Shown piece after piece: positions 5,419 through 15,072 of a stretch of DNA of 20,000 bases. Position numbers and translations under genes: made by a program. Source of the stretch: an uncultured virus (IMG/VR IMGVR_UViG_3300001683_000027). Its lineage: Duplodnaviria; Heunggongvirae; Uroviricota; Caudoviricetes. The notes under the pieces were generated by a model that searched no databases, had not been told where the DNA came from, and saw only the letters and a list, made by a program, of their open reading frames with translations. Each line of letters opens with the position of its first letter. The first letter of the stretch is position 1. The stretch is from the IMG/VR virus record IMGVR_UViG_3300001683_000027. The stretch is one strand, 5' to 3'.

Positions 5419-6528
5419 GTGACACAACTTTCGCCTATCACCACTACTGCGTTTTCGTTAGCGTACACGAAAAAAGAATTCGACAGACTTTCTAAAACCT
5501 TAGAGCAAACTGTGTTGACTCCTGGACCGCAAGGTGAACAGGGACTTCGTGGTTACAAAGGCGATAAGGGTGTGAAGGGCGACCGTGGTCAGACTGGTTC
5601 GACTGGAATTCAGGGAGAAAAAGGTGATGCGGGTACAGACGGTAATGATGGTGAACAAGGTGTTACCGGCGAAGTCGGTGCACAAGGAGAATCGGGACAA
5701 CAAGGACCACAGGGAGAAAGTGGTCCGCAGGGGAAGAAAGGTGAAGCGGGAGAACAAGGAACAGTTGGTCCCGAAGGCACTATAGGTGCGCGCGGCGGGC
5801 GCGGTGAGAAAGGCGATGAGGGCGTTCCTGGAGTCGCAGGAGCAGCTGGTGCTATTGGACCATATGGAGATAAGGGTGACCAAGGAATTCCTGGTACGGC
5901 GGGATCCAGAGGCACCAAGGGTACGTCTGGTACTAAAGGTGGCAAAGGTGATGTCGGCGAGAAGGGTGATCGAGGCGATACTGGTTCACCCGGCGAGAAA
6001 GGCGATATCGGCGATCAAGGTACGCCAGCGCCAGACTACAGAAAAGAATTTGAGCAACTCGTAAAGGATTTCAATGTTCGAGTTGGAGAGAATCAAGAGT
6101 TAATAAATAAGAACGTGGATCAGCAGATTCGTAGATTGTCGAGTTTTGCCGGAGGTGGTGGTTCATATAAGATACTAGACAATGCAGATGTTGATAAAAC
6201 ACGTTTGTCTAGTGTAATCGGTGATAGCATTTTGGTGTTTGATCCTAATAAAAAGAAGTTTGTTGTTCAATCATTCTTAACAATATTAGACAGACTAAAG
6301 GCAGACTTAGAAGTGCAATACGATAAATTAATAGACGAAGTGTCCGAATCTGGATTTACTTATGTTGGTGAAGCAGTTCCAGGCACAGACAAGTCTGCGA
6401 CTACTTGGAGAATCAAACGAATAAAAGAATTTGCAGACGGCGATCTCGATATCCTTTGGGCTAACGGCACCGCCTCTTTCGATAAAACTTGGAATGATCG
6501 TGCAACATATACATACAGTGCAGATTAA
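5419..6528 (+). CDS. Collagen-like fibre protein (56 uninterrupted Gly-X-Y triplets, helical segment, small C-terminal Trp-rich domain)
   Basis: GTG start with GAGG RBS, 2 nt after the portal stop. G-X-Y run at 5524-6027. C-term YVGEAVPGTDKSATTWRIKRI...WANGTASFDKTWNDRATYTY. Confidence 0.9.
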   Translation: MTQLSPITTTAFSLAYTKKEFDRLSKTLEQTVLTPGPQGEQGLRGYKGDKGVKGDRGQTGSTGIQGEKGDAGTDGNDGEQGVTGEVGAQGESGQQGPQGESGPQGKKGEAGEQGTVGPEGTIGARGGRGEKGDEGVPGVAGAAGAIGPYGDKGDQGIPGTAGSRGTKGTSGTKGGKGDVGEKGDRGDTGSPGEKGDIGDQGTPAPDYRKEFEQLVKDFNVRVGENQELINKNVDQQIRRLSSFAGGGGSYKILDNADVDKTRLSSVIGDSILVFDPNKKKFVVQSFLTILDRLKADLEVQYDKLIDEVSESGFTYVGEAVPGTDKSATTWRIKRIKEFADGDLDILWANGTASFDKTWNDRATYTYSAD

Positions 6529-6532
6529 TTCT

Positions 6533-6540
6533 TATAAATA
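6533..6540 (+). promoter_or_regulatory. T4-type late promoter TATAAATA
   Basis: Exact consensus just after the collagen stop, upstream of the 672-aa gene. Confidence 0.88.
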
Positions 6541-6604
6541 AACGTAATACAAACTTAACTTTTTGTCATGCTAATTTGATCAACTTAATAGAGGAATATA
6601 TTCC

Positions 6605-8623
6605 ATGGCAACTATCGTCTCAGCAGCATTAATTAATGCTACAACTGAAACTGAGGTTAACATCGATGCGTCAACCAGAGACATCACACTAAATTTAGCG
6701 GGAAATCTGTCGGCAACTGGTGTTACACTTCAGGCTCTGTACTCATATTTAAAGAAAGCGTGGCGAGTCCAAGACTTCACCATCACAGGTGGTTCTAGTA
6801 CCGGTACTACAGTCACAGTCACTAATGTCACTAACGTGTTGCCAGGAATGGCAGTTGCAGTTACTGCTGGTACTGGTACTATTACCGCTGCTGCCACTGT
6901 CGTGTCTATTGATAGTGCGACAACGTTTACTTTGAGTGAAACACCTTCTCTTGCACTATCTGGTGCAACCGTACAATTTGTTAACCACTTGATCGAATAT
7001 CCATTCCCTCTGGTAGCAATTACTCCAGAACAGTTTGAATTTTCGTTTGATTGGTCTCCAGTTGATGATACTTCACGTAAGTTGATTCGTACTTCTGGTT
7101 GGAAAGAAATTAATACTGCTGGCACAATTCAAAAAGAATTTGTTGGTATTATCTCACTTGGTACCATCGACGGTGCTCAAGATGGTGCTGGTGGTGGTGA
7201 TCAAGACGTACCTTACTTTGCATTTAGAGCGTCCGGTACAATTCCTTACGGTACTACGGCAGCGTTTACGTATGCTGGTGAAATCAACGAAGCAATTCAG
7301 ACCTTCCAAATCGCCGGAACAGATAATAGACTTGCAGAACTTGCGCTCTTCGTTCGAGAAGAAGGTAAGACTTTCGGTAAGGCAGATACAGTCTCTATCG
7401 GTATTTCATCTGGTAGTGCAATTGGCGCACAGGCCTTCCGATTCCCGCTTGCAGAAGCGAATGATCTTAACTACACTGTTACAGATGCCATCATCGCGGC
7501 CGCCGACGCTAGTGGACAGTTTTACGATTTAACCGTAGGACAAGGTCCAACAATTGAGTACTTCGCAACCAATCAGTTGTCTACAACGTTCTTGGCAGCG
7601 AATAGTAAACCTGATTTAACAACACCTCGAAACTTTGGTGTGCTTATCGACGCTACTGCTGGTGATGCTACTACTACTAACGCGTCTGGATTCTTAACGC
7701 TTCAGGAATTATATTCTTGGACGAAATATCGTTTGCGTCAAACAACTACTATTGACGATGAAGGTGGCGTTGATGCTGCTGTTCAGATTGGTAATACTTC
7801 GGATGAACTATTAACGTTCGTTGGTTCTGAATTACAAACGTTGTTAGTGCAAAACGCTGACGGTGCAACAACGCCATCTGGTGTTGCAATTGAAAACTTC
7901 GCGTCAACTGATATTGGTAACTTAGCATTTAAATATAACGGTGCGGGCCCTGTTGATTTACAGAGATTCCCACTAGTTGCTTCAGGATCAATCAGTTTTA
8001 ACTCAAACCTTTCTGAAGATCCTACTGCTACTTACACCATGTATTATCAGTATACTCGTCAGTACAATGTTTCAAATATTATTTGGACACAAGTTTCTGG
8101 TTCAACCGGAACATTGACTAGAACCGTAGGCGATCTTTTACCTATAACAACCACTGGTGATTACATCGATGTAAGTGGATTTACAGATGTTAACCTAAAT
8201 GGTGTGTATTTGATTACTGCCGCGACAAGTACTAGTACTATTAATGTAACTCGTATTGATGACTTAACATTACCTGCTTCTGAAACACAAACCACTGGTG
8301 CTTTAAACTTTAGGTTCAATCCAGTTGATTCACCTGCTGCAATTATCGTACTCAAAGCGGATCAGACAACTCAGATTCGAGATAGTGTACCTCAAGTCAC
8401 AGGTGGTAGTTCTGTAACATTCGATTATGGATATACAAACGATTTAACGCCTGGTTCGGCAAACGTTGTGGAAAATCGTACAACAAACACCGATGTACCT
8501 ATCACAATTCGTGCTTCTGGAACTACTAAAGCACAATGGGTTAACACTTTAGGTACAATTGAAACAGGAAACGCAAACAACCTCTCGGTTGTAGCACCTC
8601 TTGAAAGAAACTATGCCGCGTAA
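6605..8623 (+). CDS. Putative virion structural protein (672 aa, Thr/Gly/Ala-rich, beta-rich), candidate major subunit of the inserted cassette
   Basis: AGAGGA RBS, own late promoter and downstream terminator, MA- start, two TLQxLYS motifs, C-terminal LERNY. Confidence 0.75.
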   Translation: MATIVSAALINATTETEVNIDASTRDITLNLAGNLSATGVTLQALYSYLKKAWRVQDFTITGGSSTGTTVTVTNVTNVLPGMAVAVTAGTGTITAAATVVSIDSATTFTLSETPSLALSGATVQFVNHLIEYPFPLVAITPEQFEFSFDWSPVDDTSRKLIRTSGWKEINTAGTIQKEFVGIISLGTIDGAQDGAGGGDQDVPYFAFRASGTIPYGTTAAFTYAGEINEAIQTFQIAGTDNRLAELALFVREEGKTFGKADTVSIGISSGSAIGAQAFRFPLAEANDLNYTVTDAIIAAADASGQFYDLTVGQGPTIEYFATNQLSTTFLAANSKPDLTTPRNFGVLIDATAGDATTTNASGFLTLQELYSWTKYRLRQTTTIDDEGGVDAAVQIGNTSDELLTFVGSELQTLLVQNADGATTPSGVAIENFASTDIGNLAFKYNGAGPVDLQRFPLVASGSISFNSNLSEDPTATYTMYYQYTRQYNVSNIIWTQVSGSTGTLTRTVGDLLPITTTGDYIDVSGFTDVNLNGVYLITAATSTSTINVTRIDDLTLPASETQTTGALNFRFNPVDSPAAIIVLKADQTTQIRDSVPQVTGGSSVTFDYGYTNDLTPGSANVVENRTTNTDVPITIRASGTTKAQWVNTLGTIETGNANNLSVVAPLERNYAA

Positions 8624-8639
8624 TAGATAGTATGTGAAC

Positions 8640-8665
8640 GGGGGAGTTTTCTCCCCCACTTTTTT
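8640..8665 (+). terminator. Intrinsic terminator after the 672-aa gene
   Basis: GGGGGAG-TTTT-CTCCCCC perfect 7-bp stem, then AC-TTTTTT. Confidence 0.82.
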
Positions 8666-8681
8666 ATTTAAAGGATTGATT

Positions 8682-8972
8682 ATGAAAATTAGTATTGAAC
8701 AAGCCGCAGAAATTATGTCAATGGAACCAGACGAACTTCTTATGGAAGTCCAATCTGTCGATACTGTAACAGCACACTTCGTTGCTCCTTCCGATATGTT
8801 ATACAATGATGATGGCACTGTTCAGTTTGTGGACGGTGATCCGAATCCCACATGGGAATTTGATATGACAGAGATTCTTGATCATAAAAAAGTATTGGAT
8901 GAGAAACGTCAAGCAGAAGGTGCCGAGAAATTGTCACAAGCAGTTAGAACTGCATTGGATTTAGAAGGATAA
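8682..8972 (+). CDS. Acidic 96-aa protein with excisionase/MerR-type HTH-like pattern
   Basis: Likely start is ATG 8682 after AAGGA; the track's 8634 start runs through the terminator. ISIEQAAEIMSMEPDELL...WEFDMTEI. Confidence 0.7.
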   Translation: MKISIEQAAEIMSMEPDELLMEVQSVDTVTAHFVAPSDMLYNDDGTVQFVDGDPNPTWEFDMTEILDHKKVLDEKRQAEGAEKLSQAVRTALDLEG

Positions 8973-9107
8973 ATGAGCGTAAAATTTCTCTATTACACTG
9001 AGTACACTTCGACGGGCGGTGCATTATCTACTGCTACGCTGGTTCCGTATTTGGATCAGATGTGTGTTATGTCTGATAGATGGCATGGAGTCAGATCATG
9101 GCTATAA
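8973..9107 (+). CDS. 44-aa hypothetical protein (not in ORF track)
   Basis: TAA-ATG abutment with the upstream gene, AAGGA just upstream, stop overlapping the next gene's start region. MSVKFLYYTEYTSTGGALSTATLVPYLDQMCVMSDRWHGVRSWL. Confidence 0.5.
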   Translation: MSVKFLYYTEYTSTGGALSTATLVPYLDQMCVMSDRWHGVRSWL

Positions 9108-11437
9108 CACTAGATGCTACCACTGATGGTAATTTTACCGTATTGAATAACGCAAACTCAAACGCATCTGTGAACAATTTCACTGCTGCCGGTGCTTGGA
9201 ATGATGTAAAGCGAGACACTACCTCGAAAGTTGAAGGTAATTCGTGCGTTAACTTAAGGGTAAATGCGGGTACAGGGACTCTGGTCTCATCACATTCTTC
9301 TCGAAGTTTAGAGAACACGCATTTAAGAATGTGGGTAAGAATCGGGCAAGCACTAAGCATCAACACTGGAGCAAACGGTGGAGCGCAACTTATTGCGGGA
9401 ACGTCCCAGAACCATGTCCGTTGGAATGTCTATGACTTGAACACACAGGTTGTTGTCTATAACGGATGGATGATGCTGGTCACTGACCCTCGTAAAGTTT
9501 ATGCTGGATCAAGTGGTTCTATTCCGAACCTTCTTTCCTTAACAAGTTCAGGCGTAAGAGTAAACTTTCTAGATGGTAACGGTAAAGATTTGGCAATTGG
9601 AGATCTTTTGTGGGTAGGTAATGAACTCTCAGTTGAAGGAGGAACTACCGGAGCAAGAGGTACTTTTGCTGAATGGAGTGCAGAAGATCGTACTCAGGGA
9701 TGGGGCATTCTGCGTAGCGTAGGTGGTGTGTATTACACAAATGCTGGATCAGTTTTTCAAGGTGTTGGTACAACAGATAGTTATTTTCAAGACACAAACC
9801 AGTTAATAGTATTTGAAAATTTACCAGTATCAGGTTCTCTCTACAACTGGAGACATGTTGGTAATGGAACGGGAACTAACTTTTTTCAACTGGGTAATTC
9901 ATCTGGAACAGGAACAACTAAAACAGGATCTGAAGGTGGTGTATTGCGAGCAGCCGGGAATGCTCCATTTAGAATAACAGCAATCGATGCTAATGCTTCT
10001 GCTGCATACTATGGCGTTCAAATGAACGGTACAACTGCGTTGTACAACGACCAAGTGCGTAATGTTAAAAGGAATGACGGAGGGTCTTTTATAGACGATA
10101 CAGTTGACTTTAATCAAGCGACTGGCACAGTATCTCCATTCCCAACGCCAGGACTCAACGATGCTTGGTATGTGGGGCACGATGAGATATTCTATGAAAT
10201 AAACTTAAACGTAACCACAGCAAACACTAGTGGAACATACACCACAGTGTTTGAGTATTGGGACGGCAGTGCGTGGTCTGCATTAACAGATGTTACAGAC
10301 GGAACAAACAGTCTAAGAACAACTGGAACAAATGCTATAACATACTCAAAACCCGATGATTGGGCAAAGACCACAGTAAATAGCGACAGCAGGTATTGGG
10401 TACGTTCAAGAATCTCTGTAGTTGGCACAGCAGGAACAGATCCTATAATCACGCAGGGCACTGTGGCTATGGCGGGTGATATAAACTTAGAAACATCAAC
10501 TGCCGAAATGATCAGTTGTAACATTTCTAAGATGGGTTGTATCAAAATTAGAAACGGTGCTTTCTTAACGAAATCGACTATTGATGGATCAGTTGTACCC
10601 GCAAAACATGCGGCAGTAGATTTTGGAGATACTAATCCTGCTACTAATACTGTAAGAGATTTAACCATTCAGAATTGTAATAAAGGAATATTGCTTAAAG
10701 GCACTAGTACTGGAGCAACTTCTTACACTCTTACGAACATATTTTTTAATAATAACACTGCGGATGTTAGAGTCGATTTTCCTGCGGGGGCTACGATTAC
10801 AATAAACATCAGTGGAGGTGATACACCTTCTATTGATAATGTTAATGGTAGTACTGTTACTATTGCTAATCCTGTTACTGTAACAATCTCTGGTCTTCTA
10901 GGCAATACAGAAATTTCAGTACTAGAAAACCCATCACCATATTCGTCTGCGGCCGCAGCGCCAGTTTCATTGTTTAATCAAGACGTTCTTTCAGCAGTCA
11001 CAGGTACAGACATCGAGTTAGACACTGGTGGCACTGCAAACATAACACGAATACTTAGCACAGGCACATCAAGTTTCGCGGCGATGGGTTTGACGGCCGG
11101 AGATAAAGTTCGAGTATCACAAAGAAGCGATCTTAAACTCTTCGATACGTATACATATACCGGCGGAAGTACAGTCTCAGCAATCAACGTTACTGCCGTT
11201 GCATCTTCGACTAGTAAATTACCTGCTATAATAGACTCTCCGGGCGAAACAGTCACGGTAGAGAAAGTAAATGCTTCATATTCTTTTCAGGTTGCATCGG
11301 GTGAAGTAGTAGACTTCTTGGCATTCAGAGAGGGTAGTTTGCCCGTTTACCAATTGACTCAAACAATCTTAGTATCAAACAATTCGTTTCCGTTGTCACA
11401 AACACTCGACAGAAACTTTGATGCGTTTGAAGTATAA
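9098..11437 (+). CDS. Large putative virion/adhesin-like protein (~779 aa; carbohydrate-binding-like and beta-helix-like segments; C-terminal LDRNF)
   Basis: GGAG at 9087-9090 favours ATG 9098 (MAITLD) over 9080. EYWDGSAWSAL...PDDWAKTTVN...YWVR module; LTIQNCNKGILL/YTLTNIFFNNN repeats. Confidence 0.7.
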   Translation: MAITLDATTDGNFTVLNNANSNASVNNFTAAGAWNDVKRDTTSKVEGNSCVNLRVNAGTGTLVSSHSSRSLENTHLRMWVRIGQALSINTGANGGAQLIAGTSQNHVRWNVYDLNTQVVVYNGWMMLVTDPRKVYAGSSGSIPNLLSLTSSGVRVNFLDGNGKDLAIGDLLWVGNELSVEGGTTGARGTFAEWSAEDRTQGWGILRSVGGVYYTNAGSVFQGVGTTDSYFQDTNQLIVFENLPVSGSLYNWRHVGNGTGTNFFQLGNSSGTGTTKTGSEGGVLRAAGNAPFRITAIDANASAAYYGVQMNGTTALYNDQVRNVKRNDGGSFIDDTVDFNQATGTVSPFPTPGLNDAWYVGHDEIFYEINLNVTTANTSGTYTTVFEYWDGSAWSALTDVTDGTNSLRTTGTNAITYSKPDDWAKTTVNSDSRYWVRSRISVVGTAGTDPIITQGTVAMAGDINLETSTAEMISCNISKMGCIKIRNGAFLTKSTIDGSVVPAKHAAVDFGDTNPATNTVRDLTIQNCNKGILLKGTSTGATSYTLTNIFFNNNTADVRVDFPAGATITINISGGDTPSIDNVNGSTVTIANPVTVTISGLLGNTEISVLENPSPYSSAAAAPVSLFNQDVLSAVTGTDIELDTGGTANITRILSTGTSSFAAMGLTAGDKVRVSQRSDLKLFDTYTYTGGSTVSAINVTAVASSTSKLPAIIDSPGETVTVEKVNASYSFQVASGEVVDFLAFREGSLPVYQLTQTILVSNNSFPLSQTLDRNFDAFEV

Positions 11438-11445
11438 TTCGGCAT

Positions 11446-11472
11446 GATAAATACTATAAATAGATATAAATT
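11446..11472 (+). promoter_or_regulatory. T4-type late promoter TATAAATA (11455-11462) flanked by two near-copies
   Basis: GATAAATA-C-TATAAATA-GA-TATAAATT upstream of the 840-aa gene. Confidence 0.85.
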
Positions 11473-11501
11473 AACTCAAGTTTTGTCGGAGATTTTATAA
11501 A

Positions 11502-14024
11502 ATGGCAGCATATATGCCTCATGATTTTATACAAATGCCCCCTAATAGCACAGGGCAGAAAATTCATATTGCGAAAAGGGTTGTACTTCATTTTGATACT
11601 ATTCAAACTGGCCAATCGTTCTCCGTAGGAGATAGCATATTAGGTGGCACTAGCGGTGCCACCGGAACAGTTACTGGTATTGAAACTGCTGGATATACCG
11701 CAGGAATAGGATTGTTGTGGATAAATGCCAGTACAGGTACTTGGTTAGATGATGAAGAGATTCGGGTATCTTCGGTTTGGATTGCCAGCGTTAATTTAAA
11801 CACGGATACTGAAGGTGGACCTGCAAATACTTTGGGTATTCAACATGTGAGTACTGTTGATAAAGAAAATCCTGCTAGGTCTCTACACATTACTGCTGAA
11901 GGCGCATCTCGCGTTGTTTTGCCTGCGGTGACTGTTGCGGAATCCGGAGCATTACTCACCCAGGATACTAGTGCATTATATACTCAAACATATGATTATA
12001 ATTACTCTGACCCTGATCTTTTCGATAATGAAATTCACCTAAAATATACAAATCCATTAAATTCAGCGGAATCTTGGGCGGCAGGAACGCATGTTAGTGG
12101 GGGAACTTCTGAAGCATCCGGTCATGTTAAATCGATTGATGCAGTTAATGATATCCTTACATTAACAGACGTTGTAGGAACATTTGTTGTTGGCGAAACA
12201 ATACACCATATACACTCTGGAGTTTCAACAATCGAAACTATGGATATTGCTGCCGGTGGAGTTCCCGATGTGACCGTCAATACTAGTACAAAAAGCATTG
12301 ATTTGTCAACTGGTGGAACTGTAGCCGGTGTTGGTGCAACTAGAACAACTAACACCTATTTTCCTTTAGGTAGAGGACGTTCTACCGAAGCAGTATTTGG
12401 AGTATCAATGACCGGAGCCACTCCTGGAGTGCTTAGACGTTTTGGAATGTATGATGAGTATAACGGATTCTTTTGGGAAATTTTAGAATCTACTGGACTT
12501 GACACCACATACGATCCTGCTGGCGCTCTAGACACCTTTGGAGAAACTGTTATTTGTGCGGTTCATAGAACTAATACAACAGGATCAGTCGTAAATCATA
12601 TCATAGCAGCAGTGAATTTTAATGTTAACACGTTAAATGGTACGGATGCAACAGGATTTGATCTTGATATAACTCGACCAAATCTTTTCTGGATCGATAT
12701 ACCGAATAGTGGGGCAGGTTCTGCTAAGTTCGGAGTATATAATGATGCTGGAGATAAATTGCTGGCACATACTTTCAGTTTCAATAATAGTGCTTTGTTT
12801 TCGGGTGCCCCCATTCCAGCATCTGCTTTACCTATTAGAGAAGAGGTTAGAAATTTCGGAGCAGGAGTTACTAGTCAAGAAACCATATTAAAGGTGGGCA
12901 AAGTTACAGTATATACGAATGAAAATGCTTCACGATATACGAACGCCCAGACGTTCCTTCATGGAAATGTTCAAAATAGACATGCTATGATGGATGACAC
13001 ACGAGGTGAAGTTCCTTTAATTGCAGTTCGTGCTGAACGGTTATTAAATAGTATTGTAAACAGAACTTATTCTAAACTACACGATATGAATGTTAATCTC
13101 CAAGACGAAAGAATAGATAGATTTTTTGGAGGCGTTATTGCTACTGATGCGATACCTATGGTTAATCATAATTTGTTGGACGGTGATAAGGTTCAGTATC
13201 AAGATGGTGTAGGGGCAACGGTAACCGGATTAGACGATCATCAATACTATTATGTCATTAAAATCGATGCTGATAATATAAAATTAGCATCTACTTATGA
13301 ACTGTCAAGAGTACCAACACCCTTAACAATATCAGGTGGAGTAGTCACTAATAAATTGGTTGAAGCACCAGGCACAGTAGTAACATTGCGGATCCGTAAA
13401 AATTCCGATATTGCAGACGCGACTTGGTCTAGACATAATACAGTCAGATCAGCATCTTCGTGGAGTCAAAACGCAACTGGTTTCAGATTGTCTGAAAACG
13501 TTGTAGTTGCGACCGGAGGAACAAATTATGTTGCTGGAGATATATTAGAACTCGATTCAGGAATAGTTAACCATAGAGAAGCGGTGTTAGAAGTAATTGA
13601 AGTATCAGCAGGAGCAATAGTTAAAGTACGTATTCTACCTTTGACGGGAGGACATCTATTAGAAACTGATGGTGTATCAAATGCTAATTATGGTTCATAT
13701 AATGGAAAAATTAGTGGTGCGATAGGACATAAGGCAAGTGGTGTTGGGTTCAGCGCATGCGCGGGTGCGGGTGCTACGTTCTCTGTATCGGTTAAATGGG
13801 GCCATGGGTTCTGGTGGACGAACTTTTATAAATCTTGGGGTGAATATAATTTCGGAGGAAGTGATATTCTATCTGCAAGGGTCAACCAAGATATAGCATT
13901 TTGTTACGGACATTCTGATAATAGTGAAGAAAACTTACAAAACTTGACTGTCACAGGCCAAGTCTACCAACCAGGATATAACGCGAAGGTTCAACTATCA
14001 TTAAATTGGCAAGAGATACAGTAG
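11502..14024 (+). CDS. Large putative virion protein (840 aa) with lectin-like core and small beta-barrel repeats
   Basis: GGAG RBS. Core RTTNTYF...RRFGMYDEYNGFFWE...LNGTDATGFDLD...WIDIPNSGAGSAKFG...LPIREE; GGTS repeats; HNLLDGDKVQY...GL...YYYVIKIDADNIKLAST; GGTNYVAGD. Confidence 0.7.
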   Translation: MAAYMPHDFIQMPPNSTGQKIHIAKRVVLHFDTIQTGQSFSVGDSILGGTSGATGTVTGIETAGYTAGIGLLWINASTGTWLDDEEIRVSSVWIASVNLNTDTEGGPANTLGIQHVSTVDKENPARSLHITAEGASRVVLPAVTVAESGALLTQDTSALYTQTYDYNYSDPDLFDNEIHLKYTNPLNSAESWAAGTHVSGGTSEASGHVKSIDAVNDILTLTDVVGTFVVGETIHHIHSGVSTIETMDIAAGGVPDVTVNTSTKSIDLSTGGTVAGVGATRTTNTYFPLGRGRSTEAVFGVSMTGATPGVLRRFGMYDEYNGFFWEILESTGLDTTYDPAGALDTFGETVICAVHRTNTTGSVVNHIIAAVNFNVNTLNGTDATGFDLDITRPNLFWIDIPNSGAGSAKFGVYNDAGDKLLAHTFSFNNSALFSGAPIPASALPIREEVRNFGAGVTSQETILKVGKVTVYTNENASRYTNAQTFLHGNVQNRHAMMDDTRGEVPLIAVRAERLLNSIVNRTYSKLHDMNVNLQDERIDRFFGGVIATDAIPMVNHNLLDGDKVQYQDGVGATVTGLDDHQYYYVIKIDADNIKLASTYELSRVPTPLTISGGVVTNKLVEAPGTVVTLRIRKNSDIADATWSRHNTVRSASSWSQNATGFRLSENVVVATGGTNYVAGDILELDSGIVNHREAVLEVIEVSAGAIVKVRILPLTGGHLLETDGVSNANYGSYNGKISGAIGHKASGVGFSACAGAGATFSVSVKWGHGFWWTNFYKSWGEYNFGGSDILSARVNQDIAFCYGHSDNSEENLQNLTVTGQVYQPGYNAKVQLSLNWQEIQ

Positions 14025-14025
14025 C

Positions 14026-14631
14026 ATGTTTGTGGGCAATTACGGGAATTATTGGCAGTGGTTACCTGCTGATGAGAGTGGTTATCCTGGCCAGAAAGTG
14101 GCATTCGACGGTGCAACAAGAACCATCTATGTAAACGAGGGTGTTTCCGAACTTGATACAAAGATTGACTTGTACTCTGCATGGAAAGAATGGGTGTTGG
14201 CATCTACGGAAGCACCATCCCCTATTGTATGGGCAAAAGCATTTACTGCTATTGGTGGGGACCCGATTACTGCTGGTCAGGATCTAGGTACTACCTACTT
14301 CTTAGAGAACGGTTGGAGAATACAACCTATTCCATATGGAACGTCATACACACTGACTATAACAGGTAACCTATATACTAGAGAAGCCGGTGAAACACCG
14401 TTTCGATTTGCGAATGGTGTTTCGGTATCATTGGTTAGATCCAACATCGTTGAATTAATTACGGTAGAAGCACTTGCGGTGGCAATTACACCAGATGATG
14501 TTACTGCGATCTCTAATGCAGCAGCAGATAAAGTTTGGGATGAACTACTTTCAGATCATACTATTGCAGGATCAGCTGGTACTAAACTGAAAGACAACTT
14601 GAAGAAAACACAATATATTGCAAGAATATAA
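14026..14631 (+). CDS. 201-aa hypothetical virion-associated protein
   Basis: Starts 1 nt after the upstream TAG. KVAFDGATRTIYV...IDLYSAWKEW...YFLENGWRI; C-terminal ADKVWDELLSDHTIAGSAGTKL. Confidence 0.7.
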   Translation: MFVGNYGNYWQWLPADESGYPGQKVAFDGATRTIYVNEGVSELDTKIDLYSAWKEWVLASTEAPSPIVWAKAFTAIGGDPITAGQDLGTTYFLENGWRIQPIPYGTSYTLTITGNLYTREAGETPFRFANGVSVSLVRSNIVELITVEALAVAITPDDVTAISNAAADKVWDELLSDHTIAGSAGTKLKDNLKKTQYIARI

Positions 14632-14644
14632 AAGGAGATCCATT

Positions 14645-14839
14645 ATGGACGACAATACTGACGTAGAAAATATCATAACAAACATCGGTGCCAAGAACTT
14701 TACCGCGGCCGAATCCAACTTTAATAGCGCATTGGACGATAGAGTCCAGATTGCTCTAGATCAAGCGAAGGTTAGAATCGCATCTAAAATTTTCGATGAC
14801 ACAGCGGTTGAGACCGAAGAAGACGAAGATCAATCTTGA
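14645..14839 (+). CDS. gp67: Prohead core protein, T4 gp67-like (64 aa)
   Basis: AAGGAG RBS favours ATG 14645. IITNIGAKNFTAAESNFNSALDDRVQIALDQAKVRIASKIF plus acidic tail matches the gp67 pattern; position before gp21. Confidence 0.75.
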   Translation: MDDNTDVENIITNIGAKNFTAAESNFNSALDDRVQIALDQAKVRIASKIFDDTAVETEEDEDQS

Positions 14840-14865: not shown

Positions 14866-15072
14866 ATGAAGAAATTTTCTACTATAAGAGAAGCGAAGAA
14901 GACTGCACCCAAGGGTGATAAAGTTTCTTCGAAAAAGGTTGGCAAAGTTTCCGTTGCGGTGTACAAGGGTAAAGGTGGATTCACTGCATACATTGATGGT
15001 GACAAACTAGACACATACCGGTCGCAGAAAGAAGCAGAAGCAATGTCTACGGAATTCGCAAAGGAAGTATAA
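14866..15072 (+). CDS. Small basic prohead core/internal protein in the gp68 position, with capsid-targeting-like N-terminus
   Basis: MKKFSTIRE|A resembles the T4 internal-protein leader MKTYQEFIAE; TAA-ATG abutment with gp21. Confidence 0.7.
   Translation: MKKFSTIREAKKTAPKGDKVSSKKVGKVSVAVYKGKGGFTAYIDGDKLDTYRSQKEAEAMSTEFAKEV

What the first reader, a model, noticed from the sequence alone, without database searches (positions are those of the whole stretch)
6659..14193. A recurring 'LYSxxK' helix module: twice in the 672-aa protein and once in the 201-aa protein
Seen: NIDASTRDITLN...VTLQALYSYLKKAWR (6659-6766), internal FLTLQELYSWTKYRLR (7691-7738) and AFDGATRTIYVN...KIDLYSAWKEW (to 14193). 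The first and third share D-x-x-T-R-x-I upstream, and later AI followed by an aromatic strand ending in W (LVAITPEQFEFSFDW vs FTAIGGDP...YFLENGW). Inference: a paralogous domain, possibly the acceptor for the RN[YF] tail. The 672-aa protein has both elements (could chain), the ~779-aa protein only the tail and the 201-aa protein only the LYS domain (could cap or anchor), resembling major/tip/base logic in pili.
Basis: inference. Interest (0 to 1): 0.72.

Follow-up and report, generated by a model that had tools for sequence, protein, structure and literature searches.

The report
Phage horn fibre's head-to-tail socket
These genes of an uncultured T4-like phage are relatives of those that build the unexplained "horn" on the head of cyanophage Syn5, and matched changes across related phages suggest the horn is a pilus-like chain in which each subunit's tail plugs into a socket on the next.

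Summary
The three LYSxxK motifs are real and are the only ones in six frames. The genes form a Syn5-type horn cassette between the portal and prohead genes of a T4-like phage. The 672-aa protein matches gp53 (33%, E 2e-28), the 201-aa protein matches gp55, and the 779-aa protein is gp54-type. The scan found this cassette before on other DNA.

New here is the mechanism. The N-terminal module (D1) and the gp55 domain align weakly but collinearly (62 columns, E 0.0013). The internal copy (D2) is a remote repeat; only 4 of 66 relatives keep LYSxxK there. Across 225 distinct cassettes, D1 K50, gp55 K54 and the gp53 tail glutamate E667 always change together (137 K/K/E, 88 non-K/non-K/D). That rests on only two independent events, so the sign test is not significant.

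Best reading: the gp53 tail docks into D1 of the next gp53 (shaft) and into gp55 (base), with gp54 at the tip. gp55 would then be the horn's anchor, not the capsid knob it was tentatively called.

The parts
6605..8623 (+). 672-aa gp53-like horn shaft protein (Syn5 gp53 homologue)
   Evidence: tblastn 33.4%, E 2e-28 to Syn5 gp53; AlphaFold pLDDT 91.5, pTM 0.77
6656..7114 (+). D1, N-terminal LYS module (residues ~18-170), proposed tail acceptor; K50 codon at 6752, T140 at 7022
   Evidence: HHalign with gp55 domain, 62 columns; covariation with tail; coordinates
6767..6982 (+). small beta-barrel inserted in D1 (residues 55-126), present only in some lineages
   Evidence: VIA-align Z up to 8.5, rmsd 1.8, 67 aligned; filled to at least half in 39 of 114 rows of A1
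7127..7459 (+). middle beta-strand domain (residues ~175-285)
   Evidence: DSSP of model; similarity to the C-terminal domain not significant
7550..7939 (+). D2, internal remote repeat of the LYS module (residues ~316-445); helix at 7709
   Evidence: same secondary-structure order as D1; weak profile match to D1; no covariation with tail
7973..8590 (+). C-terminal transthyretin/CnaB-like beta-sandwich (457-662) with a second inserted barrel (485-572)
   Evidence: VIA-align Z 5.7-7.8 to SlaB, Gram-positive pilins and Bacteroidales fimbrial proteins, which is middling; end homologous to gp54-type C-termini
8591..8620 (+). C-terminal tail ...PLERNYAA, proposed donor peptide; E667 at 8603
   Evidence: E667, R668, N669 invariant in A1; 109 of 110 closed gp53 ORFs matched the tail pattern, the one miss being a partial ORF below the length filter
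9098..11437 (+). 779-aa gp54-type protein: variable N-terminal part, beta-helix-like middle, shared C-terminal domain and DRNF tail (11408); proposed tip
   Evidence: BLAST to Rctr197k_179 and Panino 98/99, which match Syn5 gp54; gp54 C-terminal profile hit; no direct BLAST hit to Syn5 gp54
14026..14631 (+). 201-aa gp55-like protein: LYS module (20-140; K54 at 14185) plus helical C-terminal part with a VWDE motif; proposed base/anchor
   Evidence: 31.5% over 92 aa to Syn5 gp55; profile A2 hits Syn5 gp55 at E 9.9e-14; AlphaFold pLDDT 76
5419..6528 (+). 369-aa collagen-repeat protein, accessory cassette gene
   Evidence: PF01391; C-terminal domain found in 24 of 27 T4-like cassette loci
8682..8972 (+). 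96-aa acidic protein, accessory
   Evidence: in 13 of 27 T4-like cassette loci; no family hit
11502..14024 (+). 840-aa virion structural protein, accessory
   Evidence: phrog_1645, E 6e-27; relative beside the Rctr197k cassette
6533..6540 (+). T4-type late promoter TATAAATA before the 672-aa gene
   Evidence: exact match, intergenic; motif recalled
11455..11462 (+). T4-type late promoter TATAAATA before the 840-aa and 201-aa genes
   Evidence: exact match, intergenic; motif recalled

Best explanation
The module is the socket of a head-to-tail virion fibre of the Syn5-horn type. Shown: the three genes are gp53-, gp54- and gp55-type. Inferred: the short C-terminal [E/D]RN[Y/F] peptide that follows the last beta-sandwich of gp53 binds the helix-and-hairpin face of a LYS module, with a salt bridge from tail E667 to the motif lysine. 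Docking into D1 of the next gp53 extends a non-covalent shaft. Docking into the 201-aa protein, which has a socket but no tail, ends the chain, and its variable helical C-terminus ties the fibre to the particle, by analogy with Syn5 at a capsid vertex. The 779-aa protein has a tail but no detectable socket, so it caps the far end and presents a variable adhesin for host or surface contact. D2 is an older internal repeat that stiffens and lengthens the subunit and does not take the tail.
For: Homology to Syn5 gp53/gp55 and, through intermediates, gp54. gp54- and gp55-type genes accompany gp53 in 34 of 34 distinct gp53-selected loci with at least 7.5 kb downstream (12 T4-like, 10 other viral, 12 in cellular assemblies; 73 of 107 loci dropped as short, incomplete or duplicate). 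D1 and the gp55 domain align collinearly, and cross-HMM scores are shifted (gp55 on D1 median 3.3 bits, reversed -1.5). K50/K54/E667 agree in 225 of 225 triples, 267 of 267 D1-tail pairs and 258 of 258 gp55-tail pairs. These come from two events; an AU test on a 31-row subset rejects one clade (p 9e-42). In the second event (L247 lineage) only 4 of 21 strongly conserved gp53 columns and 1 of 7 gp55 columns changed, and they include K50, E667 and K54. In the large variant clade a basic residue appears two positions earlier in D1 (66 of 67) and usually in gp55 (55 of 67). 0 of 149 gp55 representatives carry the tail. T4 late promoters lie before the 672-aa and 840/201-aa genes. Gipson 2014 assigned gp55 to knobs only from secondary-structure prediction (PMC4102127, passages), and S-TIP28 keeps gp55 (95.5%) without a gp58 hit.
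Against: Only two independent events, so the sign test cannot reach significance (p 0.5), and the covarying positions were found after looking. D1-gp55 similarity is weak (probability 18.6%), and less diverse profiles did not find it. Covariation cannot tell an intermolecular from an intramolecular K50-E667 contact. The gp54 tail has D at the matching position in 143 of 146 K-type cassettes and loses its N in 46 of 146 with an unchanged D1, so its acceptor is poorly fixed. One very divergent locus with an unaligned tail (L462) keeps gp55 K while D1 has lost it. [quoted passage not shown] Nothing here shows where the fibre sits on a myovirus.
Confidence: 0.6

Rival explanations
1. Same socket chemistry but no long polymer: the gp53 tail folds back onto its own D1 (closed monomer or small ring) and is handed to gp55 on assembly, giving a short gp54-gp53-gp55 spike present in a few parallel copies.
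For: Covariation fits an intramolecular K50-E667 pair equally well. The monomer model gives residues 661-670 a mean pLDDT of 81 and pTM 0.77, which could mean the tail is already packed.
Against: About four domains lie between D1 and the tail. The 672-aa gene has its own late promoter, as expected for an abundant subunit. The Syn5 horn is long and slender, with gp53 along the shaft (recalled).
Confidence: 0.2
2. The tail-and-socket fibre is real, but in this myovirus it is mounted on the neck, tail or many capsid sites rather than on one vertex opposite the tail; the collagen and 840-aa proteins form that mount.
For: The cassette occurs with unrelated capsids (T7-like, T4-like, sipho-annotated). 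The gp55 C-terminus is highly variable. The accessory genes travel mostly with the T4-like loci.
Against: The insertion point is inside the head-gene block in the T4-like loci examined. The only studied member sits on the head (PMC4238041, PMC10575957 passages).
Confidence: 0.12
3. gp55 is an independent capsid decoration (the hexon knob of Gipson 2014) that descends from a gp53 domain; the covariation only reflects shared descent of a linked cassette, and the tail binds something else.
For: Published assignment of gp55 to densities I/J (PMC4102127). Only two independent events. The profile similarity is weak.
Against: The assignment rested on prediction and tied gp55 binding to gp58, which was not found in 34 of 34 loci (single-sequence search) or in S-TIP28. 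In both events the equivalent lysine changed in two different genes while most conserved columns stayed. The Syn5 record labels gp53, gp54 and gp58 structural but not gp55.
Confidence: 0.08

Closest known systems
Cyanophage Syn5 horn genes gp53, gp54 and neighbouring gp55 (NC_009531, Voetvirus; Pope 2007 and Raytcheva 2014 seen as titles only, content recalled; Gipson 2014 PMC4102127 passages)
   Same: Homologous gp53 and gp55, a gp54-type protein, the same gene order, and conserved R[NQ]Y tails on gp53 and gp54.
   Different: T4-like myovirus rather than T7-like podovirus; gp53 is 672 against 446 aa because of two inserted barrels; three accessory genes (collagen, 96 aa, 840 aa); no gp58 in the window. 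gp55 is read here as the horn base, not a hexon knob.
Bacterial pili with major/tip/anchor subunits: Bacteroidales type V pili, chaperone-usher pili, sortase pili (mechanisms recalled)
   Same: The proposed logic of tip, shaft and base joined head to tail by a terminal peptide; a CnaB/transthyretin-like sandwich at middling Z 5.7-6.7 to BcpA, FimA, SpaA, Mfa3 and BT2657.
   Different: No sorting motif at the C-terminus, which ends ERNYAA. The acceptor is a separate alpha/beta module with no PDB match above Z 2.4, not a groove in the Ig-like fold. No sequence homology. It works like a pilus at most; it is not one.
Homologous cassettes in S-TIP28, Maribacter phage Panino, Virus Rctr197k and Siphoviridae sp. 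ctPCi537
   Same: gp53, gp54-type and gp55 genes adjacent.
   Different: Annotated only as hypothetical or structural proteins. Panino has two gp54-type genes. ctPCi537 belongs to the variant type (non-K, non-K, D).

Membership tests
Syn5-type horn cassette | gp53 homologue | tested here: met
   33.4% identity, 67% cover, E 2e-28
Syn5-type horn cassette | gp54-type protein with shared C-terminal domain and tail | tested here: met
   indirect: BLAST via Rctr197k_179 and Panino 98/99 and a C-terminal profile hit; no direct BLAST hit to Syn5 gp54
Syn5-type horn cassette | gp55 homologue downstream | tested here: met
   31.5% over 92 aa; profile E 9.9e-14
Syn5-type horn cassette | late, virion-gene context | tested here: met
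   between portal (PF07230) and protease (PF03420) genes; TATAAATA at 6533 and 11455
Syn5-type horn cassette | single fibre on the capsid vertex opposite the tail | not testable with these tools
   needs microscopy of a virion; no isolate
Syn5 knob system (gp55 + gp58 on hexons) | gp58 partner | tested here: inconclusive
   no gp58 hit in the window or in 34 loci by single-sequence search; the rest of the genome is not held
One paralogous LYS domain family | D1 and the 201-aa domain homologous | tested here: met
   weak: 62 collinear columns, 0 of 40 shuffles, E 0.0013, probability 18.6%; parallel substitutions
One paralogous LYS domain family | D2 homologous to D1 and to gp55 | tested here: inconclusive
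   D1-D2 20-40 columns above all shuffles; D2-gp55 none; coordinates not available for superposition
Sortase-assembled pili | C-terminal LPXTG sorting signal | tested here: not met
   C-termini read directly
Donor-strand pili (type V, chaperone-usher) | terminal strand completes the neighbour's incomplete fold | tested here: inconclusive
   the model puts the last strand (658-662) before the tail; no complex could be folded

The most novel reading that the evidence does not exclude
Tailed phages of unrelated lineages carry a pilus-like appendage that polymerises without chaperone, sortase or protease. A ten-residue C-terminal plug docks into an alpha/beta socket with no solved relative; gp53 is the shaft, gp54 the exchangeable adhesin tip and gp55 the capsid adaptor. 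The E-to-D variant clade is a second plug-and-socket type that may not cross-assemble with the first. The published identification of Syn5 gp55 as a hexon knob would be wrong.
Probability: 0.5. Interest if true: 0.8.

Novelty: new variant of a known kind. Interest (0 to 1): 0.62.

Why it matters
The Syn5 horn has lacked a molecular architecture since it was described. I found no paper on how its subunits join (searches; subscription journals are mostly not held), and no solved relative. The gp55 family alone has 2,809 clusters at 50% identity, so such appendages may be common on environmental phages while almost absent from isolates (6 records among 50,697). The residue trio K50/K54/E667 and its natural variant give a direct mutational test of the assembly rule and of gp55's role in a culturable phage.

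Tried and rejected

A LYS-like cap in the 779-aa protein (GTFAEW...WG, about residues 190-240) looked similar by eye but gave no profile match to D1, D2 or gp55 (3, 18 and 2 of 30 shuffles reach it).

A perfect two-unit repeat in gp53 (LYS + sandwich, twice) was suggested by the secondary structure, but the two sandwiches do not match significantly (1 of 30).

First HHalign round with less diverse profiles found no D1-gp55 alignment.

Pfam, PHROGs and NCBIfam: no family for the three proteins, except a sub-threshold FeoA hit on the 779-aa protein. PDB by sequence: none. Foldseek PDB for the 672-aa model: best TM 0.12. BFVD: best TM 0.20, to Syn5 gp54. The 201-aa model found three uncharacterised phage proteins of similar length in BFVD and nothing above Z 2.4 in the PDB representatives; this does not show a new fold. 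ESM Atlas: scores 0.78-0.81, uninformative.

Whole-protein contact inference was not attempted: effective depth was 45-121. No RNA holder was listed. No own genome is held.

Papers: Raytcheva 2014 is not held. Passages of PMC2784036, PMC5099504, PMC8776855, PMC6052677 and PMC8814770 held nothing on horn composition. No supplements were read; those of Gipson 2014 may bear on gp55.

Full report
Setting. The window is the head and tail module of a T4-like phage: terminase, sheath and tube (named from sequence and position, recalled), portal (PF07230, 3677-5416), then six genes (5419-14631), then prohead protease (PF03420), scaffold and major capsid protein. The nearest isolate by capsid protein, C48C1 (64%), has only two short genes between portal and protease, so the six genes are an insertion. 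Exact TATAAATA late-promoter motifs lie in the gaps before the sheath, the 672-aa gene, the 840-aa gene and the prohead genes.

Observation. In relatives the motif is conserved at D1 (57 of 66) and, in relaxed form, in the 201-aa family (156 of 174), but not at the internal site (4 of 66), where the family reads IYExVQYxLR.

Identity. The 672-aa protein matches Syn5 gp53 (33.4%, E 2e-28) and four other phages, 6 records among 50,697. The 201-aa protein matches Syn5 gp55. The 779-aa protein links to Syn5 gp54 through Rctr197k_179 and Panino 98/99 and through a C-terminal profile, not by direct BLAST. That gp53 and gp54 form the horn, with gp53 in the shaft and gp54 at the tip, is recalled from Raytcheva 2014; I saw only its title in a reference list (not held). 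The horn sits opposite the tail and is added after it (PMC4238041, passages). Of 107 gp53-selected loci, 34 were distinct, complete and had at least 7.5 kb downstream; all 34 carry gp54- and gp55-type genes and none gave a gp58 hit. Earlier notes of this scan report the same cassette in T4-like, T5-like, P22-like and crAss-like phages and in CPR chromosomes. I had reached the Syn5 link before seeing them; a search for the chaining mechanism among them returned nothing.

Anatomy. The AlphaFold model of the 672-aa protein (pLDDT 91.5) has D1 (strand pair, helix 42-52, hairpin 136-146, W150, short helix) with a barrel inserted at 55-126, a beta-strand domain at about 175-285, D2 with the same order of elements, and a transthyretin/CnaB-like sandwich at 457-662 with a second barrel, followed by the tail. 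The sandwich matches pilins and SlaB only at middling Z (5.7-7.8). The 201-aa model repeats the D1 order over 20-140 and ends in helices; it has no PDB match above Z 2.4. Coordinates were not returned, so the domains could not be superposed.

Paralogy. With diverse profiles (66 gp53, 173 gp55) D1 and the gp55 domain align over 62 collinear columns covering the strand pair, the helix, the hairpin and the W (score 23.0; shuffles 12.4 +/- 2.6, 0 of 40; E 0.0013; probability 18.6%). D1-D2 covers 20-40 columns; D2-gp55 is at background. An earlier round with narrower profiles found no D1-gp55 match. The C-termini of gp53 and gp54-type proteins are homologous over 43 columns (88.5%, E 2.7e-6). The 779-aa protein has no detectable LYS module, and 0 of 149 gp55 representatives have a tail.

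Is the module the acceptor? One annotated cassette (ctPCi537) had lost the motif lysine in both D1 and gp55 and had changed its tails. I then fetched relatives of it, of Panino and of a second variant. Of 473 sources, 414 carry gp53. Among distinct rows with all scored columns filled, D1 K50, gp55 K54 and tail E667 agree in 225 of 225 triples (137 K/K/E; 88 non-K/non-K/D), 267 of 267 D1-tail pairs and 258 of 258 gp55-tail pairs. Fifteen closed gp53 ORFs had no aligned tail column and were dropped: four end in PEKNY (E; the three with D1 present keep K), most others look truncated or frameshifted, and one divergent locus (L462) may be discordant. On trees built without the motif columns the states change twice, and an AU test rejects a single origin (p 9e-42). 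Two pairs cannot pass a sign test (p 0.5). The specificity is what counts: of 21 gp53 columns conserved at 95% or more, the large clade lost K50, G225, G639 and E667, and the L247 lineage changed K50, G186, P281 and E667; of 7 gp55 columns they lost Y50 and K54, and K54 alone. My rough, after-the-fact estimate for both events hitting the tail column and the equivalent gp55 lysine is a few in a thousand. D2's matching position stays Q. For the gp54 tail the signal is weak: it keeps D regardless of K50 (143 of 146), and although it lacks N in 24 of 24 cassettes whose D1 reads WA instead of YS, it also lacks N in 46 of 146 ordinary ones.

Mechanism. Shown: homology, synteny, late context, domain pattern and covariation. 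Inferred: the gp53 tail binds both D1 and gp55 at equivalent sites; gp53 therefore chains head to tail, gp55 ends the chain at the particle, and gp54 caps the tip with a variable adhesin (one of the gp54-type proteins scanned has a ConA-like lectin domain above threshold). An intramolecular K50-E667 contact, a short spike, or a mount elsewhere on a myovirus are not excluded. The complex job could not be run, so no interface is modelled.

gp55. Gipson 2014 assigned gp55 to hexon knobs from sequence-based and density-based secondary-structure prediction, built no model, and tied its binding to gp58 (passages). gp55 travels with gp53 and gp54 across unrelated capsids and is 95.5% identical in S-TIP28, which gives no gp58 hit. 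The Syn5 record does not label gp55 structural. Together with the covariation this favours a horn-base role. Against a visible horn in every member, the Panino paper describes a plain podovirus and does not mention one (passages).

Verdict. Observation confirmed; interpretation partly supported. The cassette belongs to a known kind and has been met before in this scan. The plug-and-socket rule and the re-reading of gp55 were not found in the papers I could search and are directly testable in Syn5. Interest 0.62.

Noticed in passing
window 5419-6528: Collagen-repeat protein whose C-terminal domain resembles the small gene just upstream of gp53 in Rctr197k (35% over 57 aa); present in 24 of 27 T4-like cassette loci.
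   Followed up: partly
window 11502-14024: 840-aa phrog_1645 virion protein between the gp54- and gp55-type genes; a protein of 450-930 aa holds this slot in most T4-like loci and has no RNY tail.
   Followed up: partly
window 8057-8320 and about 11090-11212: The barrel inserted in the C-terminal domain of the 672-aa protein resembles an insert in the 779-aa protein (pairwise E 8e-5), suggesting exchange between the two genes.
   Followed up: partly
window about 14645-14839 and 14866-15072: Two short ORFs (one acidic, one basic) before the protease, in the position of T4 prohead core genes (names recalled, not tested).
   Followed up: no
L102, L125, L130-L132, L146-L148: In many T4-like relatives the gp54-type gene lies before gp53 instead of after it; some phages carry two gp54-type genes (L003, L033, L068).
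   Followed up: no
P0243, P0262, P0289, P0376: gp55-family proteins keep the domain at the N-terminus and add tails up to about 1,100 aa, some with many VWDE repeats.
   Followed up: partly
L183, L186, L192: The three-gene core lies in assemblies titled Daviesbacteria and Woesebacteria; earlier notes of the scan describe such CPR copies.
   Followed up: no
L385, L388: Both the gp53- and gp54-type proteins end in long threonine runs.
   Followed up: no
L004 (S-TIP28): Close Syn5 relative with gp53-gp55 but no gp58 hit: a natural test of the knob assignment.
   Followed up: partly
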